From positions 14,942,001 to 15,006,000 of the forward strand of contig OZ059894.1 of assembly GCA_964057225.1 (NCBI GenBank): 64,000 nt of DNA. Reading direction: 5' to 3'. A model generated the notes under the pieces. The model worked only from the letters and a program-made list of their open reading frames with translations, had not been told where the DNA came from and did no database searches. Positions 11,501-51,294 of this stretch are shown piece by piece (within the stretch, counting starts at the first letter, position 1; the number at the start of each line of letters is the position of its first letter). The position numbers and the translations under genes were made by a program. Origin of the DNA: Auanema rhodensis. Lineage: Eukaryota; Animalia; Nematoda.

Positions 11501-14500
11501 ATAATTTGCCTTGTGAGATCAATTTAGCTATTGCCATAGCCGTAAGTGTTTTCGATATCGATGCTATACGATATCGGTTAGTTGGTAAAGCCTATAAAAG
11601 GTGTTTTGAAGATGAATAATGCAATTTCTTTAGCAGAATTTCAAATTTATTACCCTTTTCTTGAGTAATAGATCGGAAAACCCATAAGCAGTACTAAAAC
11701 GAGTTTGCCCAGCTTTAGAGATGTGTATATTAATTGATGGTAATTCAAATTTTCTCATCTGAATCAATGAATGATCATTAAAGTTTTTTGTCATGTGATT
11801 TATATACGTGGGATTCTATTAAAGATTCTACATCACCCCATTCTCTAGATGAAACACCATATGATCTGGGGATTTCACGATTTCTCCATGTAAATTCACT
11901 TCCTCGCCAGATTATCCAAAATTCTTTGTTCTCTCTTGAGGACATTCTAAAAATTAAAATTATATATTTCTAAACATAGTAAATCTGGCTGTGTTAACCG
12001 TGGTTTGCTAGCGAAAAGTGCAGGTTGAAGGCTACTTTTGGACATATAGTTTGTCATTTCATTTAACAGATCCCCTTCCTGTATCTGATATCTTGAAAAT
12101 AAGAATAAAATCCAATGTTTTCAAAGTACTCTTTAAAATACCTGATGCCAAATCCTTTTCTCCAAATTGAGAGAACCATCGTTGTTTTATTTCTCACAAA
12201 AACCTGGAAAAAATAATGTTTTCATTCTTTTATGCTTGTCCGCATAAATCACGGACAAGTGTGATCCACATAAAGTTTTTTCGATTCTCTCTAGAATCTT
12301 GGCTAGTTTTTTCTATGTTAAAACAACATCTGATTCATATTTTTCCCTTTCATCTACTTTCTCCGAAAGAAAAAATCGAATTAGTGCTATGAAATCCAGT
12401 ATGATTAAACATTGGCAAAGCGCCTTATCTGTCAAATAGATGTCAAGATATGAATAGTTTAGTGACAATTATAGATTCTTGCATAATAAGATATTTTCAT
12501 ATAGAAAGAAATTGAGAGATAGAGAGAGTGATAGAGGAAAATTAAGAAAGCGATTAAGCTTGAGACAGTGAATTACCGACCTGCCAACAATCCGGAAAAT
12601 ATCCATTTTTCGTCATATTCCTTTGTACCGAATCCATCTGCTTTAGAGGCTGGGAGAGGATAATGAAGTGACGCAATCGACGAGGTTTCCTTTTCCAGAC
12701 TGCACTGTCATAAGCTCGATAATACTGATAGATCATGTCTGGCAAGACAAAAATTGCCATTTAAGGCTTCTTACCTGAACTTTTGGCCAGATCTATCCGC
12801 TGAGATGAATAAAGGATCTGCTCTGATTCCGGTCATTTTATCAGCTTCCACGTGTAGCTCGTCCAGACTCATTTCCATCTTCACAACGTAATCTCCAGAT
12901 TCCTCACGAACATTGAGAATGTAAAATTCATCTTCGAGATATGTATACGCGAGTACGGATTCTGGGTTCATCTGTTGACTCAGTAGATTCACATCATCCT
13001 TTCGTAAATGTACAAAACTAGCTGAGCCTACGGTCTTCGGAACAGCAACATATTCTGGATAAACGGTACTACCGTGTACCGGATAAACATGATATCCAGT
13101 AAAATTTCGAGTTTCCCAAATTTCGGATAATGTCAGTTTTTGAATTCTGCGATCTGAATCCAGACGCTGCTGTATCATCGACGGTGAGGTATCATTAGAG
13201 GCTTGGCAAAGAGATTGGCAGAAAAGCATAAATGATATATACACGATAAGCACATTATATAAAAATCTTGAAGAAACCCAACAGAAACTGAAATATCGCC
13301 CGCAGATAGGACCGGACCGCATGGAAATAATCCACAGAAATGTAGTCGAGCGCTAACTGTGAATATAAGGGGCTTGACGGTAGTTGCTTAGCTCAACAAC
13401 GATAACGAAAGCGATGGTTGATGGCTGATGGCTGATGATGATGTTGATGATGACGACGACGACGACAACGATGAAGGAGAAAGCTAATGGTTGTGATCAG
13501 TGTTTTCCTCCTAGCTTTCTTTCTTTCTCTGATCGACTGTCCTTGCTTCCTTCTACACTTATGCCTAACTGTTTTCGTCTCTAGATTCACATTCTATTCC
13601 AAATGCTTTATCAAGCAATCCTTTTCAAAAGAAAGCTTGTTGGTTGGTCTGGCCACTAGGATGCTTGTCAACTGATCAAGCTATATCAGGACAAAAGCTG
13701 ATTGTGTGGTGTTGGTTGTGGCCTCTAAAAACCAGCTCATAGACATTGCAGACATTATATTGAAAGGATATATGAATGACTTCACGATTAAGATTTCTAA
13801 AGTTGCAAAACACAAGCAACGACATTTCCATGAAGTGAAAAAACAAGTACAGTTTTTGAACATAGCTGTAGTTAAAGCTTTTATAATTTAAAAAAATTAA
13901 GAAAACTTTTAAAGCATTTCCTAAAACTTGGTTAAGAATGACATGATTATGATCAGAAAGTGCGAAAACTTTCTAATTTCTTAATCGATCTGATTGCATC
14001 TTAACATTGATTTGATAATGTTTACAAAAAAAAACAAAAGTGAAAGCTAGTGAGTGGCTGATGAATTTTTATCCCAAACATCTAGGATTTCATAAGGGAA
14101 ATCTTAGTAAACTGAACTTATGTTGAATTTCTTTCAGATATTTATGCTGTACCAAATTTGAAAGTTTTGGCAATGGAAAACTGGGGTTCGAGAGGATATT
14201 AAACTAATTATAACATAATTAACACATTTCAGGATTAATAATGGTTCGATCGCAACAACTTTTTTATAATCGACACGTAACTGGTCCTGCAGAGAAAAAA
14301 GTTACATTTGAAGTATTAGCTCATGAAATTGCTCATCAAGTGAGAAAAAAAAAGAAGAAAAAAAATAAACAAATTTAATTTTTAAGTGGTTCGGAAACTT
14401 GGTTACAATGAAGTGGTGGAATAATCTTTGGCTTAATGAAGGCTTTGCAACAATGATGGCTCACAAAGCAGTACTCAAACTATTTGGACCAATTGTAACG

Positions 14501-18210: not shown

Positions 18211-19448
18211 AATTCTAAAAAAATATTTGTTTACATTTCAACATCAAATAAGCATGAAATCAGAAAAATAATATAGAGATTGCCGTCGAGAGAGCTGATC
18301 CATGTGGGGAATAAACAGCCCGCGGCTATTTTGATGACTTCATTCTCAAGAATGCCTATATAGGGGATATAGGATAGCCTTCTTTTCACATCCAGCCCCT
18401 TTTACGAGATTGTTCAAGGTGAATTCATTACCCGATAGCCACTCAATATCTATCATGTTTAATCTCTAGTCAATCTTTCAGAAATACGAAATCCACTAAA
18501 CTGTCCTTTCATTATCGAGCGGATTGTCTATGATTCTCTTGAAAATATTCAGTATTTCTCATCGAATTTTCTCGTAATCATCCGGTACATTTTGTAAAAT
18601 TAGCAAAATTGCTTTGTTATCAATGGAATGCTTGACTAAAAGATATTTGAAACAGCTATAAGAAGATATCAGATAATCTAGACAAGATGTCTGAAAGAAC
18701 TTTTTCTATTCATAGTCTAGTCTCGGCTAGCAACTTAAGTGAACAAAGAATATCTTTTTATGTATGAAACCAAAATCCAATGATAAACATCAATGCTTAC
18801 CGTAATTATTGAAAATAAGATAAAAAATCAAAAAAGATAAATGCTATGTGTGTTAGATAAAAGAATTTTTTTTTGCTTTTCACAAATGATTTATCTTAAT
18901 CAGCTACATCATCAGAATCAGTTATATAATATGCTTTATGCTTCATACTTGTTTTCATATGAATTATGGTAAAAACATTAAACTTGTGTATGATTCATCA
19001 TGTATGTATATACATATTTGTGCATATCATATATGACTTATGAAGTATAAAAATCAAAAAATTATATAAAAATGAAGAATAAATTATAAAATTCATTTGT
19101 CTTATATGTCAATTACAATCTTATATTACTTGGCTTATTTGACTATAATAATAATTATAACTAGATGTATGCATATGTCAATGATTGTAGTAGTTTTATA
19201 TAATTTTTAGAAAACATTTTCAAAATAATCTCTAGATCATAATTTTCAGTAATCATGCTTTTTTCTTTTTTTCTTAATTTTAAGCTTTAAAATTATATTT
19301 TTATATTCATATTTCTATTCCCATTTTCTTTTTTTTTTGTAAAATTAATTAATAGTCCTGATAATTTGATAAGAAGATATCCGCTATAACTTGATATGTG
19401 ATCAAACATTATATGTACATGTAAGTGTGTATGTTGTATAAGTTGTAT

Positions 19449-19938
19449 AGAAAGTATTGACGCTAAACCAAACTTTTTGGCCATTTCAACTTTTCTCAAT
19501 TTACACCACTTTTCAGAAATTTTTGAAGCAATTTTGTAAACAAAACAGTAAATTTTAAAAAAAGTTTTGTTTTTGCCCATCATCGAGCCTGATCAGGTCG
19601 AAACCATTTTGCCCAAATACAGTAAAACAGCAGAAAAATAAAAATTCCAGACTTTCGAGGTGTTTTTATGAGAAACACTTTATCAGATGAAGATATGTTG
19701 GAATTGTAAATCTTAACTCTTCAAATAGTAAAGGGAATCATTGAGTTTGTTAATCTAAGAAAAACAAAGAATGATGTTACTTTGACTCTTTCGGATTAAA
19801 TTCTCCAATAAAACTTCAAAAATATCTAAAAAATGATAAAAACAAACAAATAGATTGTTTAACATTTCAAATACAAAAACACATTATTGCAGATACTATT
19901 ACTTATTATTTCGAAAATTATTGGAATTTCATGACTTC
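19449..19938 (+). repeat. Left inverted arm (490 bp)
   Basis: AGAAAGTATTGACGCTAAACC...GGAATTTCATGACTTC; no mismatch to the right arm seen by eye. Confidence 0.95.
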
Positions 19939-19960
19939 TTACTTTTAAAATTACTTTTCC
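19644..19960 (+). pseudogene. Decayed Maverick adenain-like cysteine protease (left copy)
   Basis: IPDFRGVFMRNTL / GIVNLNSSNSKGNH*VC* / CYFDSFGL (19778-19795) / FQIQ / HYCRYYYLLF corresponds to the H-W, YFDSFG, Q and C motifs of Polinton PRO. Contains stops and frameshifts. Confidence 0.8.
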
Positions 19961-20028
19961 GACGAAACGACGAAAATTACTATTTTATAACTCCTAAACT
20001 TATATTAGTTCAGGTTTGATAACAATTC

Positions 20029-21398
20029 CTAAAACCCTGGTTTGATATGAACAATACCAAATGCCATAGTATGACTGTCTTCTAAAATATAACGCTTATA
20101 TTCTGTCAGAACTACATCTTTATTTAGAGTTACTTTATACTGATATTGAGTATAAATTTGATGTTTCACACTTATGATTGTGAATTATTTCTTTCTAACA
20201 ATAGTTTTGTCAAAGAGACATTTTTTATAATACCTTTACTTTTTTTTTGATTTCATCATCAGGTTTCATTTTTTTTGGAGCATTAGGATTCTCTTTTTCT
20301 TTCTGTTTTATTTTTTGTAAAGTTCTATGAAGGATTTGCGGGTTTCTTCACCAACTTTCAAAGCATATTGTTTTGGCTTCAACGCTTCCATTTCTTCCAT
20401 TATCAATCCACTGAGTTCATTCTTAAATTTTCTGACAACTTTCTTATTCTCATCGTTATACAGTACTTGATCTTTTGGATAATCACTGAAATTAAAATTT
20501 CTTCCAAAAGAGATATATTTTTCAATATCTTTGTATACATCTTCAGTCTGGATGTTATATGTATATGAGACTGTCAGTATCTTGATAACCCAGTTTAATA
20601 TTTACAAATCCATACTTCTTCTGTATTATATTGTAATGAAAGTCATACCTCAACCACTTACTTTATTCCAAAATAGCAAAACCAACATGGTTTTATCAAG
20701 AACAATATATGTTTTCTCCATTTCTATGGCTACCAACTATTTATTATACATGATAGTTCTATTATAATTTGTTTTAGAAGCCAACTTGACTATTTTATTT
20801 TTATCTGTAATGAATCTAACATCTACCCTTTCTCTCACATTTTCCATAAGCTTTCTCAAATACAGCATTAACTTATGAAATCTTTCTCAAAATCATTTTT
20901 AGCGTTTTTTCTGAAACTACTATTAATTTCAATATAAGGAGCTAACCAACAAGATTCATCAAATTTGATGATTCTTTTTGGTTTTGTTTTTTCTTTCTTT
21001 TTCGAATTTTCTTTAACTTTATTCCAAGTTCTAAAGTGGGAAGTCTTCACTATAAAAACTTATATACCTTTCTATAAAACCCTTTATATATTCATCAGAT
21101 TTAGTAATTGCATTATTGATTCTGTCCAGGATATCATCTTATTCAAATTGGAATATCTAGTAGGTAACGTTTGATTCATTACCAATCCATATAAATTATT
21201 AGCAAAATACATCAGCATGGAATTGATTAATCAAAGTTCGGAGTGTATTTATTACCTTAGAGTATCTTTGAACAGCATTAACCATTCCACCTCTAATTCC
21301 TTTTTCAACCATCGAGTATTTTTCAACATCTTGAAGCACTTCTAATTCTACTTTGGTCTTTTTCAATATAGCATCTCAAGCTAAACCTGGGCTTGTAT
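20029..21398 (-). pseudogene. Decayed protein-primed family B DNA polymerase (Maverick PolB), C-terminal half
   Basis: TSPGLA*DAILKKTKVELEVL..EKGIRGG..ANNLYG; WLAPYIEIN..RKNAKNDFEKDF; MENVRERVDVRF; YDFHY..GYQDTDSLIY (20568-20590); NKKVVRKFKNEL; YKKCLF; KRYILEDSHTMAFG. Many frameshifts and stops. Confidence 0.9.
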
Positions 21399-21693
21399 GA
21401 CGCAACGCGACACGCGGCGCTTTTGGCTAGAGAGAAAGTCGTTTTCCCTCTTTGTCTCTGGTTTCCTATGCATTGATTCATTACATATACTAACAACACA
21501 ATAAATACAATTGATTAGCTTTTCTAGTTTAGGATGTATGTGGTTAGGACCGGGGAATGATTCATTCGAGGTTAAATTTAGAATAACCGTTCATAGATGG
21601 TGAACTTTTGAGTAACAATATTCTTTGTGTCAGCTTTTAACATGTCACTTTTCTATTGCTCTACTATTTTTATTTTGCTTTATTTTATAGAAT

Positions 21694-22226
21694 ATGAGAT
21701 TGCAAGATGATGTTCGAGTTCAAAAGTTGTTGGATAAGGCAACGATTGAAAACCTTTTGAAAAATTTTTTAGAGAAATCTATGGAGCGATCTAGCAAATG
21801 GAAATTGGGTTGAAGAACGCTTTAGCCAAATATGATAAGAAAGAGAATTTACATGAGGTGTTTTTGAAGGATTGTCTGAAGGTGATTTGCGACGTAGAAA
21901 AATCTTCATCATGGTAAAAGCCATACTTCTGAAACTCTTCTGGTAGTGTCGAAGTTTTTTGTCAAAGTTGGTGATTATCGAATTGCTTGCGAGATTCTTT
22001 GGGGTTTTGAGTCGCTTTCGATTCAAGGTAATTTTCATGAATTTCTTGGTATTTATGTAATGTATCATTTTCAGAATTTATCAAAAAGCACAAGCTTAGT
22101 GTAGAGCTTCACTCCCAAGAGTCTAAAAGGCGCTTTGCGTGTACTAAAGAATTCATTCAACAGCTTAGTGAGTTTAAAATGTCCGATGAAAAGAAAACGG
22201 AATCGGAAAAACTCTATTTCTATTAA
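21694..22226 (+). pseudogene. Intron-containing cellular-type cargo gene of unknown function inside the element (disrupted)
   Basis: TTTTATAG acceptor then ATG at 21694; probable 47-nt intron 21726-21772; clear 47-nt GTAATT..TTTCAG intron 22028-22074. Reading ..QMEIGLKNALAKYDKKENLHEVFLKDCLKVICDVEK/HGKSHTSETLLVVSKFFVKVGDYRIACEILWGFESLSIQEFIKKHKL..KLYFY*. In-frame TAG at 21792-21794 and a frameshift in the A-run at 21898-21902. Confidence 0.65.
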
Positions 22227-22279
22227 AGCTTGACACTTGTTTAATTTCTGTATGATAAGAATGATTAAAAAATTACTCA

Positions 22280-22435
22280 AACATTGATAGTAGTTGATGA
22301 GAACAAAATTACCGGAGATCTTAAAAATGAAATTATTGAAAACGAAAGACAAAAAAAAAGTTTACAAGTTTGATTATCATAAAAGGATCGAGTGATACAA
22401 TGCCTTACGGATTTATTGATACCCTAAGGAATTAA
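22280..22435 (+). pseudogene. Second, different Maverick PolB extreme C-terminal fragment
   Basis: KKVYKFDYHKRI then, after a frameshift, DTMPYGFIDTLRN*. This resembles the K.Y...YDKR....TLPYG(Y/F) terminus of Polinton PolB and differs from the left-hand PolB terminus. Confidence 0.6.
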
Positions 22436-22453
22436 AGGTAACACGGTTTCAAC

Positions 22454-22943
22454 GAAGTCATGAAATTCCAATAATTTTCGAAATAATAAGTAATAGTATC
22501 TGCAATAATGTGTTTTTGTATTTGAAATGTTAAACAATCTATTTGTTTGTTTTTATCATTTTTTAGATATTTTTGAAGTTTTATTGGAGAATTTAATCCG
22601 AAAGAGTCAAAGTAACATCATTCTTTGTTTTTCTTAGATTAACAAACTCAATGATTCCCTTTACTATTTGAAGAGTTAAGATTTACAATTCCAACATATC
22701 TTCATCTGATAAAGTGTTTCTCATAAAAACACCTCGAAAGTCTGGAATTTTTATTTTTCTGCTGTTTTACTGTATTTGGGCAAAATGGTTTCGACCTGAT
22801 CAGGCTCGATGATGGGCAAAAACAAAACTTTTTTTAAAATTTACTGTTTTGTTTACAAAATTGCTTCAAAAATTTCTGAAAAGTGGTGTAAATTGAGAAA
22901 AGTTGAAATGGCCAAAAAGTTTGGTTTAGCGTCAATACTTTCT
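22454..22943 (-). repeat. Right inverted arm (490 bp), including a second copy of the protease pseudogene (~22454-22748)
   Basis: Reverse complement of 19449-19938. Confidence 0.95.
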
Positions 22944-24235
22944 TGTATAATTCATATTTCTCTATTTATTTACTATATATATATAATACAATATATATAT
23001 TATATTATATATAGTTATAGTGTTTAATCAAGTACATACACATAGTTAAAGAAATTTTTTTATTCATTCCTGCTTTATTATTACCGGAACTGGAGCTAGC
23101 TACATCACAGAAACAACGAATCTGAGGACTAGATTTCGTAAAAAAAAAGAAAAAATGTTGTTCATATTAGAAATAATAAAGATGTCATCATATACATAAT
23201 ATATACATATGTATTTAATATGTATATATTCTATAATGAACAAAAAAAAAGAAAAATTCACAGAGAATTATATATAGAATACAGAGAAATGGAAGACAGA
23301 ATAAAAAAAAGAGAAAAAAGCGACAAAAGAAAAAAATTCAAAACGATTATAGTAATATAAATTTTTAATCATTATTACTATAATTCTGCAAATCAAAAAA
23401 AAGCTGAAAAGAAAACAAAAAAATGGAAACAAACTATTAGAAGTAACTGAAAGAAAAAAAGAATAATTGGAAAGCGTTGTATGCAAGAACTAAGCAAACT
23501 ATATATAAATTCAAATATATATTTTATAATTAAACTTATGGAAAAATTATATTTTAGCTGATGCTTTTGGGAGTATAATGTCTTTCACCGGAAATCCTAA
23601 CGAGTGATCTTGATTGAATATTGTGACTAAGTTGGAAAAAATGAAAATGTTTTAGCAACTTGGAAATCAGAGATACGAGATCATCACAGGAGAAATAGAG
23701 GCATGCGAGATGAGAACCATTGGGACATTATGCTGTTAATCAGCTAAATGCGGTAATTGGGTAGTTTAAAAGGTTGTTTAAAAGGCTTAAATGACTAGAT
23801 TCTAGAACTGAACAATCTGACTCGGTAATACAGATGAACGCATTCTGGCAAAAAGCGATTTGACAACAAGAAAGGAAAGGTTATGACGTCAGTTCGTGGT
23901 GCTATTAAGGTAGTATTGTATGTCAATCATACAAAAGCATGTGCTGTAAAAGATCGAAGAAAGATTGAAAGGAGTACTAGATTAAAGAACATCAAATAAC
24001 GATAATGATGACCAGAATGATATTGATGAAGACAAAATATGCAGAATGAGTATTGAAATTGTGCATAGATGATGTAGATCACGTCATGAATAATGTGAGA
24101 TTAGATGTATTTAAGAGGATATACATATACATATATTGTATCCTTGAAAGATATATATATATATATATATATTCCTTATTTAGATGTTATTTATTGAAAA
24201 AAAGATTATCAGAAGACGTCATGATTCTATGATAA

Positions 24236-50731: not shown

Positions 50732-50824
<93 letters not shown>

Positions 50825-51242
50825 GGTATATATTCATAATTCTATATATACATAGATATATATAATACGAAAAAACAAACAATTGCTCTAATAATAAAAA
50901 AATATATTAATAAGTCTTGCTGTCTTCATCATAGGGTCGACTAATTCAGTTTTGAAATATTTATATAGTAATATGCTCAAGAAAAAAATTAATATTTTTA
51001 ATATATGTATAATAATACAGATTATTTTAATTAAATTTATGCATTAATTTGTGTTTTAAAAGTCATCTGAATGATATAAATAGCAAATAGACTTATATTA
51101 AGTATTATATAATGTGAGAAGATTCATTCTCATGAATTTCATATAAACAATGAATTGCGTATTATTTCCAATTATTCAAAGGAACAGTTATAGCATCTAA
51201 AAGAAATGAAACCGGGTAATGACGTAATATGAAAGTAAGAGT

Positions 51243-51294
<52 letters not shown>

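What the first reader, a model, noticed from the sequence alone, without database searches (positions are those of the whole stretch)
19644..22748. The inverted arms contain a pseudogenised adenain protease with identical lesions in both copies
Seen: about 300 of the 490 arm bases encode FRGVFMR/GNH*VC*/YFDSFG/QIQ/HYC, with the same stops and frameshifts in both arms. The frame appears to run past the inner arm boundary only on the left (19939 onward). Inference: the right arm was copied from the left end after the protease died, by template switching or panhandle repair during protein-primed strand-displacement replication. This expanded the TIR and regenerated a mobilisable end.
Basis: partly seen in the sequence, partly recalled or inferred. 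Interest (0 to 1): 0.7.

Follow-up and report, generated by a model that had tools for sequence, protein, structure and literature searches.

The report
Dead Polinton with mirrored protease ends
A 3.5-kb dead remnant of a virus-like Polinton transposon carries the same broken protease gene in both of its identical 490-base mirror-image ends, likely because one end was recently overwritten with the other by DNA repair long after the gene had decayed; this is a tidy but mostly ordinary relic.

Summary
The core observation holds. The arms 19449-19938 and 22454-22943 are 490/490 identical and flanked by a target-site duplication. About 310 nt of each encode an adenain-type Polinton protease with the same 3 stops and 2 frameshifts. 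One claim is reversed: the protease's native tail and stop continue past the inner boundary on the RIGHT (p 3e-4 against the 3 nearest homologues, 0.006-0.08 against broader sets), not on the left (p 0.38-0.85). The interior holds a decayed C-terminal half of pPolB (6 stops, 8 frameshifts) and, on the right, the terminal motif of a probable second pPolB; no integrase or capsid match was found. The arms are far younger than the decay, so one overwrote the other recently. The direction cannot be fixed, and nothing shows viral replication or later movement: run contigs point to one copy with two arms. Best reading: conversion between the arms at this site (0.5). Both ingredients have precedents: Galileo TIR extension and butterfly polintons with adenain inside their TIRs. 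The scan noted gene-less Polinton-ended elements on other DNA, and nothing on this stretch. Interest 0.3.

The parts
19444..19448 (.). Left target-site duplication, 5 bp, if the element has AG...CT ends; an equally exact reading is a 7-bp duplication 19443-19449 with GA...TC ends
   Evidence: the only two symmetric solutions among end shifts of -2 to +2 and lengths 4-9
19449..19938 (+). Left arm, 490 nt
   Evidence: one 490-nt contig in runs X4 and X6
19449..19628 (+). Terminal part of the arm with no protease alignment; probable TIR proper, and may hide the decayed protease start (inferred)
   Evidence: homologue alignments start at arm offset 181-190 or later for the 20 best; no related terminus found in loci or viral contigs
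19629..19938 (+). Left copy of the broken adenain-type protease, lacking its native tail; 3 stops and 2 frameshifts; codons at the four catalytic positions are still present (His 19739, Asp 19784, Gln 19874, Cys 19888)
19939..19999 (.). Left junction: 61 nt with short internal duplications, possibly holding a shortened, diverged remnant of the protease tail
   Evidence: 22 nt duplicated, top 0.6% of 61-nt windows; alignment with the right continuation shows a 12-nt gap, low score
20000..21399 (-). Decayed C-terminal half of a protein-primed DNA polymerase B, related to polymerases that carry an endonuclease VII (HNH) domain; 6 stops, 8 frameshifts, one deletion of about 53 codons; N-terminal half absent
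   Evidence: P0108 residues 638-1124 align to 21399-20038 at 63-68% identity; PF02945 in P0108 and in L003's pPolB; stop at 20000-20002 where P0108 ends
21690..22390 (+). Unidentified stretch that reads like decayed coding sequence; a related copy (7 differences in 96 nt) exists in runs X4 and X6
   Evidence: no homologue found; related piece 21895-21990
22394..22435 (+). Terminal motif and stop of a probable second pPolB, tail to tail with the right protease (12-nt overlap)
   Evidence: rank 1 of 80,638 stop-free heptamers of the window against a motif matrix from 10 of 11 pPolBs; longer profiles give only weak support
22424..22763 (-). Right copy of the broken protease, with the same lesions plus the native tail and stop (22424-22426) beyond the arm
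22454..22943 (-). Right arm, 490 nt, exact reverse complement of the left arm
22944..22948 (.). Right target-site duplication (or 22943-22949 in the 7-bp reading)

Best explanation
This is a dead 3.5-kb Polinton/Maverick remnant whose two 490-nt ends are exact mirror copies carrying a broken adenain protease, and the two ends were likely made identical recently, at this site, by host repair (gene conversion) of one arm on the other, long after the genes had decayed. SHOWN: the arms, the duplication, the protease and pPolB relics and their lesions, and that the native protease tail lies beyond the right arm. INFERRED: (1) the element came to have a protease end on both sides, each followed tail to tail by the end of a polymerase gene; (2) it decayed as a whole; (3) conversion between inverted repeats 2.5 kb apart copied the accumulated lesions across and stopped where the two sides differ by an indel, 27 nt before the protease stop. 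On this reading, identical lesions date the last homogenisation, not the origin of the second protease copy, and they give no direction.
For: Age mismatch: 0 of 490 differences (upper 95% bound 0.6% per site) against 5 lesions in about 335 nt of protease and 14 in 1362 nt of pPolB, which are the same density (binomial p 0.56). Related relic pieces in the runs differ by 10 of 70, 12 of 108 and 7 of 96 nt. In runs X4 (a possible source of the window) and X6 (not so marked) the arm is one 490-nt contig at 1.9x and 1.75x the depth of the listed unique pieces, and the flank contig runs straight into it: two arms, with no donor copy or helper with these ends among the listed pieces. No integrase, capsid or ATPase match arose in the element. 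Both sides keep traces beyond the boundary: tail and stop on the right, a possible shortened tail on the left, and pPolB terminal motifs on both, 20 of 30 nt identical. Precedent: Galileo copies extend their TIRs by repair on the other TIR (PMC3573991, passages).
Against: Identity reaches the terminal base and the target-site duplication is perfect, as a recent integration would also give. A donor could have been lost and a helper could be exogenous. The four runs show no allelic differences in the listed main pieces, so the lack of an empty allele dates nothing. One search hid 162 pieces and 134 loose ends, and contig depth is not a copy number. The right junction was not examined in further runs. 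The tail test weakens with distant homologues: of 16 whose alignment reaches the boundary, 5 favoured left, 4 right, 7 tied; summed gain right 28.5 (p 0.04), left 12 (p 0.44). The second polymerase rests on one heptamer that I noticed before testing it; an 85-residue profile ranked the site only 6th of 850 tiles.
Confidence: 0.5

Rival explanations
1. An already decayed element was excised, copied by a helper's protein-primed polymerase (one end templating the other in a panhandle) and re-integrated here recently.
For: Arms perfect to the terminal base and a perfect duplication. AG...CT ends with a 5-bp duplication fit Polintons (5-8 bp). The left side has the protease-pPolB tail-to-tail order of L003, and a nematode Maverick is described with the pPolB 3' end next to a TIR (10.1101/2022.07.12.499685, passage). 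Insect polintons lacking polB are reported to stay mobile (10.1101/2025.02.07.637071, passages). The micro-duplications at the left junction could be template-switch marks.
Against: No donor, sister copy or helper with these termini at >=85% likeness among the listed pieces of four runs. The native tail is on the right, so a copy from left to right that ended at base 490 does not explain it. Panhandle repair of ends is recalled from adenovirus work; three searches returned no primary paper on it.
Confidence: 0.25
2. The parent family natively carried the protease inside long TIRs, so no expansion happened; only later homogenisation made the lesions match.
For: Active butterfly polintons have ~2-kb TIRs holding hexon and adenain in two copies (10.1101/2025.02.07.637071, passage). 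490 bp is within the normal range.
Against: The arm ends inside the gene, 27 nt before the stop, and the polymerase tails just beyond are only 20 of 30 nt identical. None of the fetched loci showed the protease near a recognisable terminus, though most contigs were short.
Confidence: 0.15
3. The arms are real but slightly different, and assembly collapsed them into one sequence written twice.
For: All 11 runs found are held as contigs, which drop rare variants; depth ratios are a little under 2.
Against: The arm contigs of four runs from three studies show no other letter against the window where they cover it (X4 and X6 whole, X9 348 nt, X10 two pieces); a collapsed difference should surface in some of them. 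Collapse cannot hide divergence on the scale of the decay.
Confidence: 0.07

Closest known systems
Polinton/Maverick elements (adintoviruses) and their degraded genomic fossils (PMC8097293, PMC8502044; passages)
   Same: Adenain-type protease, pPolB, TIRs of ordinary length, AG...CT ends with a short duplication in one reading, nonsense and frameshift decay.
   Different: 3.5 kb instead of 13-25 kb; no integrase, ATPase or capsid match; protease at both ends; perfect arms on a heavily decayed body; 5- or 7-bp rather than 6-bp duplication.
Galileo '2RT' copies with extended TIRs (PMC3573991; passages)
   Same: Non-autonomous copy whose inverted repeat includes internal sequence, proposed to arise by repair on the opposite TIR.
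   Different: Galileo is a P-superfamily cut-and-paste element with many copies; here one Polinton copy, and the included sequence is a pseudogene.
Butterfly polintons with hexon and adenain inside ~2-kb TIRs (10.1101/2025.02.07.637071; passages)
   Same: Two inverted copies of adenain per insertion.
   Different: Those are full-length, active and polymorphic; here the gene is broken and the repeat ends inside it.
Nematode pPolB1/pPolB2 Polintons (10.1101/2023.08.22.554363; Results section read whole, figures not seen)
   Same: The left polymerase is related to HNH-bearing polymerases like pPolB2; two polymerase types coexist and swap in such genomes.
   Different: Class was not placed on a tree here; a pPolB1 identity for the right-hand motif is unproven; the nematode host comes from unchecked notes.
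Locus L003 (nearest relative with context, 4320 nt)
   Same: Protease and pPolB tail to tail with overlapping ends (6 nt; 12 nt at the right end here); best match for both genes among the fetched loci.
   Different: Open frames; the contig starts inside the protease, so its terminus and TIR are not seen.

Membership tests
Adenain (C5) protease, Polinton type | Sequence similarity to the family | tested here: met
   Through homologues: 95 hits; 14 of 22 scanned match PF00770; profile hits 1avp at 2.4e-6. Direct Pfam scans of the window's frames were negative.
Adenain (C5) protease, Polinton type | Catalytic His, acidic residue, Cys and oxyanion Gln in order | tested here: met
   Codons present at 19739, 19784, 19874, 19888; columns match 1avp. 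Their catalytic roles are recalled, not from a call.
Adenain (C5) protease, Polinton type | Intact reading frame | tested here: not met
   3 stops and 2 frameshifts in each copy.
Polinton/Maverick | Protein-primed polymerase B | tested here: met
   As a relic only: C-terminal half, 63-68% identical to P0108, broken.
Polinton/Maverick | Retroviral-like integrase | tested here: not met
   No match in single-frame Pfam scans (insensitive to short pieces) or against the ORFs of fetched loci; about 1 kb of the interior is unidentified.
Polinton/Maverick | Capsid and packaging ATPase genes | tested here: not met
   No match against ORFs of fetched loci, several of which carry long conserved ORFs next to the protease.
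Polinton/Maverick | TIRs of 100-1500 bp | tested here: met
   490 bp; range.
Polinton/Maverick | AG...CT ends and 5-8-bp target-site duplication | tested here: inconclusive
   AG...CT with 5 bp, or GA...TC with 7 bp, fit equally; the vertebrate (AG)3 or (AGT)2 end motifs are absent.
Non-autonomous mobile Polinton derivative | Several dispersed copies or insertion polymorphism | tested here: not met
   One copy with two arms, no empty allele among the listed pieces of four runs; tables were truncated and no whole genome is held.
Nematode pPolB2 class | HNH domain and placement in the pPolB2 clade | not testable with these tools
   The domain lies in the missing N-terminal half; the nearest homologues have PF02945; no reference pPolB2 sequence was available.

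The most novel reading that the evidence does not exclude
The element is a hybrid of the protease ends of two different Polintons, one of each polymerase class, joined back to back, with its arms unified and then moved as an integrase-less unit: a snapshot of how polymerase swaps and mirror-image Polinton hitch-hikers begin.
Probability: 0.15. Interest if true: 0.55.

Novelty: new member of a known kind. Interest (0 to 1): 0.3.

Why it matters
As a single dead relic it matters little. It is a clear warning for dating: perfect terminal repeats and a perfect duplication sit here on a body with 10-15 lesions per kb, so TIR identity alone cannot be read as a young or active Polinton. If the two ends prove to come from different polymerase classes, it would give a concrete intermediate for the pPolB exchange reported among nematode Polintons.

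Tried and rejected
Single-frame Pfam scans of the element: 0 of 12. Word-index search with the protease piece: 8 candidates, none passed. Right interior: no homologue by word-index search (114 candidates), by tblastx or blastx against fetched loci, or by frameshift-aware alignment to stored ORFs and proteins of 80 aa or more (best 27 bits on either strand, no outlier); the Atlas could not read it. My by-eye reading of 21810-22260 as a polymerase palm domain was not supported (first-120-column profile p 0.45). Whole-window scan with a three-sequence pPolB C-terminal profile: the site ranked 6th of 850 tiles. Terminal 20-mer in viral contigs: one hit, chance (14 of the next 60 nt identical). No other copy of the element in the window. 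An unanchored tail test was mixed. A broad matrix from 30 of 47 homologues gave right p 0.04-0.05 and left p 0.39-0.49. For one search, 62 of 98 distinct homologue tails could be anchored on an aromatic residue; the other 36 were dropped. The right junction was not examined in runs beyond those. Searches for a primary paper on panhandle repair or racket-type excision returned none; a first Galileo search returned none. I do not claim that this anatomy is absent from print.

Full report
OBSERVATION. The only long inverted repeat of the window has arms 19449-19938 and 22454-22943, 490 of 490 identical, 2515 nt apart. The flanks give two equally exact readings: AG...CT ends with a 5-bp duplication, or GA...TC ends with a 7-bp duplication. 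The window has no N and no other copy of the element. The surroundings are an intron-rich genome, with Kelch, M1 peptidase, sulfatase, SIKE and STAR exon hits in 7 of 95 ORFs scanned, plus one weak midasin hit; the scan covered 95 of 106 listed ORFs. Unchecked notes on other pieces of this genome call the host a nematode; I did not test that.

THE PROTEASE IS REAL AND DEAD. The single-frame piece 19700-19879, stops read as X, found 95 proteins at E<=1e-3 among 1.84 billion, best 8.5e-10. Fourteen of 22 scanned match Peptidase_C5, and a 19-sequence profile hits adenain 1avp at 2.4e-6. Frameshift-aware alignment starts at arm base 181-190 and finds stops at 19742, 19751 and 19772 and frameshifts near 19690-19700 and 19877-19880, mirrored on the right; two homologues split the first frameshift in two. 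The codons at the four catalytic columns remain. Pfam does not see the window's own frames.

With P0033 and P0095 the alignment stops exactly at the inner boundary on the left and runs 24 nt further on the right; L003's protease also aligns to its last residue on the right. I ranked 62 anchorable tails (of 98) by similarity inside the arm only, then scored the 8 residues past the boundary against all stop-free octamers of the window: right p 3e-4, 0.006, 0.011, 0.057, 0.081, 0.039 for the nearest 3, 5, 10, 20, 40, 62; left p 0.38-0.85 throughout. The right frame stops after 9 codons (nearest three homologues 8-11), the left after 26. Against this, an unanchored test on 16 of 146 homologues that reach the boundary split 5 left, 4 right, 7 tied, with summed gain right 28.5 (p 0.04) and left 12 (p 0.44). 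So the right side carries the native tail; support is strong only from close homologues.

INTERIOR. The minus strand 21399-20038 aligns to residues 638-1124 of pPolB P0108 at 63-68% identity, with 6 stops, 8 frameshifts and a gap of about 53 codons; the N-terminal half is missing. P0108 and L003's polymerase carry an endonuclease VII domain, as nematode pPolB2 carries an HNH domain (10.1101/2023.08.22.554363, Results read whole). In L003, the best match for both genes, protease and pPolB lie tail to tail with a 6-nt overlap; it is the only fetched locus seen with that order. The left side has this order, with a 61-nt gap rich in short duplications and perhaps a shortened remnant of the protease tail (weak). 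The right side has it too: a heptamer at 22394 on the plus strand ranks first of 80,638 against a matrix of pPolB terminal motifs, ahead of the left polymerase's own motif (third), and its frame stops at 22433-22435, overlapping the protease end by 12 nt. I saw this motif before testing it; longer profiles gave p 0.002 (last 70 columns), 0.04 (full) and rank 6 of 850 tiles, and 21690-22390 has no homologue found. The two motifs share 20 of 30 nt, so they are old paralogues, not a recent copy.

COPY NUMBER AND ARTEFACT. Eleven runs from three studies hold the stretch or part of it, all as contigs; four were laid on the left flank, left arm and interior. In X4 (possible source) and X6 the arm is one contig of exactly 490 nt at 1.9x and 1.75x the listed unique pieces, and the flank contig runs directly into it. 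X9 branches at the same inner boundary. No listed arm contig differs from the window. Related pieces differ by 10 of 70, 12 of 108 and 7 of 96 nt. This points to one copy with two identical arms among older relics, with limits: depth is not a copy number, contigs drop variants, and 162 pieces and 134 loose ends were not shown. No whole genome is held.

MECHANISM. Lesion density is the same in the duplicated protease and the single polymerase (5 in about 335 nt, 14 in 1362 nt; p 0.56), while the arms differ by less than 0.6%. Homogenisation is therefore recent and later than the decay (inference). Identical lesions do not tell when the second protease copy arose or which arm was the template: gene order favours the left as native, the tail favours the right, and both sides keep a polymerase end. 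I favour conversion between the arms at this site (0.5), because it needs only host repair and no donor or helper is seen; Galileo offers the model of one TIR repaired on the other with internal sequence carried along (PMC3573991, passages). Helper-driven replication and re-integration (0.25) explains the perfect ends and duplication equally well; the panhandle step is recalled from adenovirus work and my searches gave no primary paper. A natively protease-bearing TIR (0.15) has precedent in butterfly polintons (10.1101/2025.02.07.637071, passages), and 490 bp is an ordinary length (PMC8097293, passages). Collapse in assembly is unlikely (0.07).

COMPARISON AND VERDICT. It derives from a Polinton by its protease, polymerase and TIRs, but fails the tests for an intact member (no integrase, capsid or ATPase match) and for a mobile non-autonomous family (one copy). 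Degraded adintovirus relics are widespread (PMC8502044, passages), and Polinton TIR remnants are linked to rearrangements in C. elegans (10.1101/2024.01.15.575659, passages). Earlier notes of this scan describe gene-less elements with Polinton ends in other genomes (unchecked) and nothing on this stretch. Verdict: real, correctly recognised as a dead adenain in both arms, wrong on which side continues, and unsupported on replication and mobilisation. New member of a known kind, interest 0.3; the two-class hybrid reading (probability 0.15) would deserve 0.55.

Noticed in passing
window 20944-20983: A 40-nt imperfect palindrome (90% self-complementary) inside the pPolB relic, at the place where the alignment to P0108 shows a 24-nt insertion and a frameshift.
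   Followed up: no
window 20013-20047: [quoted passage not shown]
   Followed up: partly
window 19475-19615: A TTTTG(G/C)CC motif occurs three times in the terminal 170 nt of the arm (19475, 19571, 19607); possible protein-binding repeats.
   Followed up: partly
window 19729-19798, 21283-21390, 21895-21990: Diverged copies (86-93% identical) of protease, pPolB and the unidentified right-hand stretch exist elsewhere in the same runs, so the genome holds further relics of this family.
   Followed up: no
L003:1-4206: Open protease and a 1300-codon pPolB frame with an endonuclease VII domain, tail to tail with a 6-nt overlap.
   Followed up: partly
protein P0038; P0003: Database proteins in which the protease region is joined to an integrase and chromodomain (P0038) or to a phospholipase A2-like domain (P0003); fusion or gene-calling error not checked.
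   Followed up: no
window 12774-13352 (-): 193-codon open frame with no Pfam match, the longest in the window.
   Followed up: no
window 50744-51294: Opposed (TC)19 and (AG)23 microsatellites 429 nt apart form a 39-nt inverted repeat; simple repeats.
   Followed up: no
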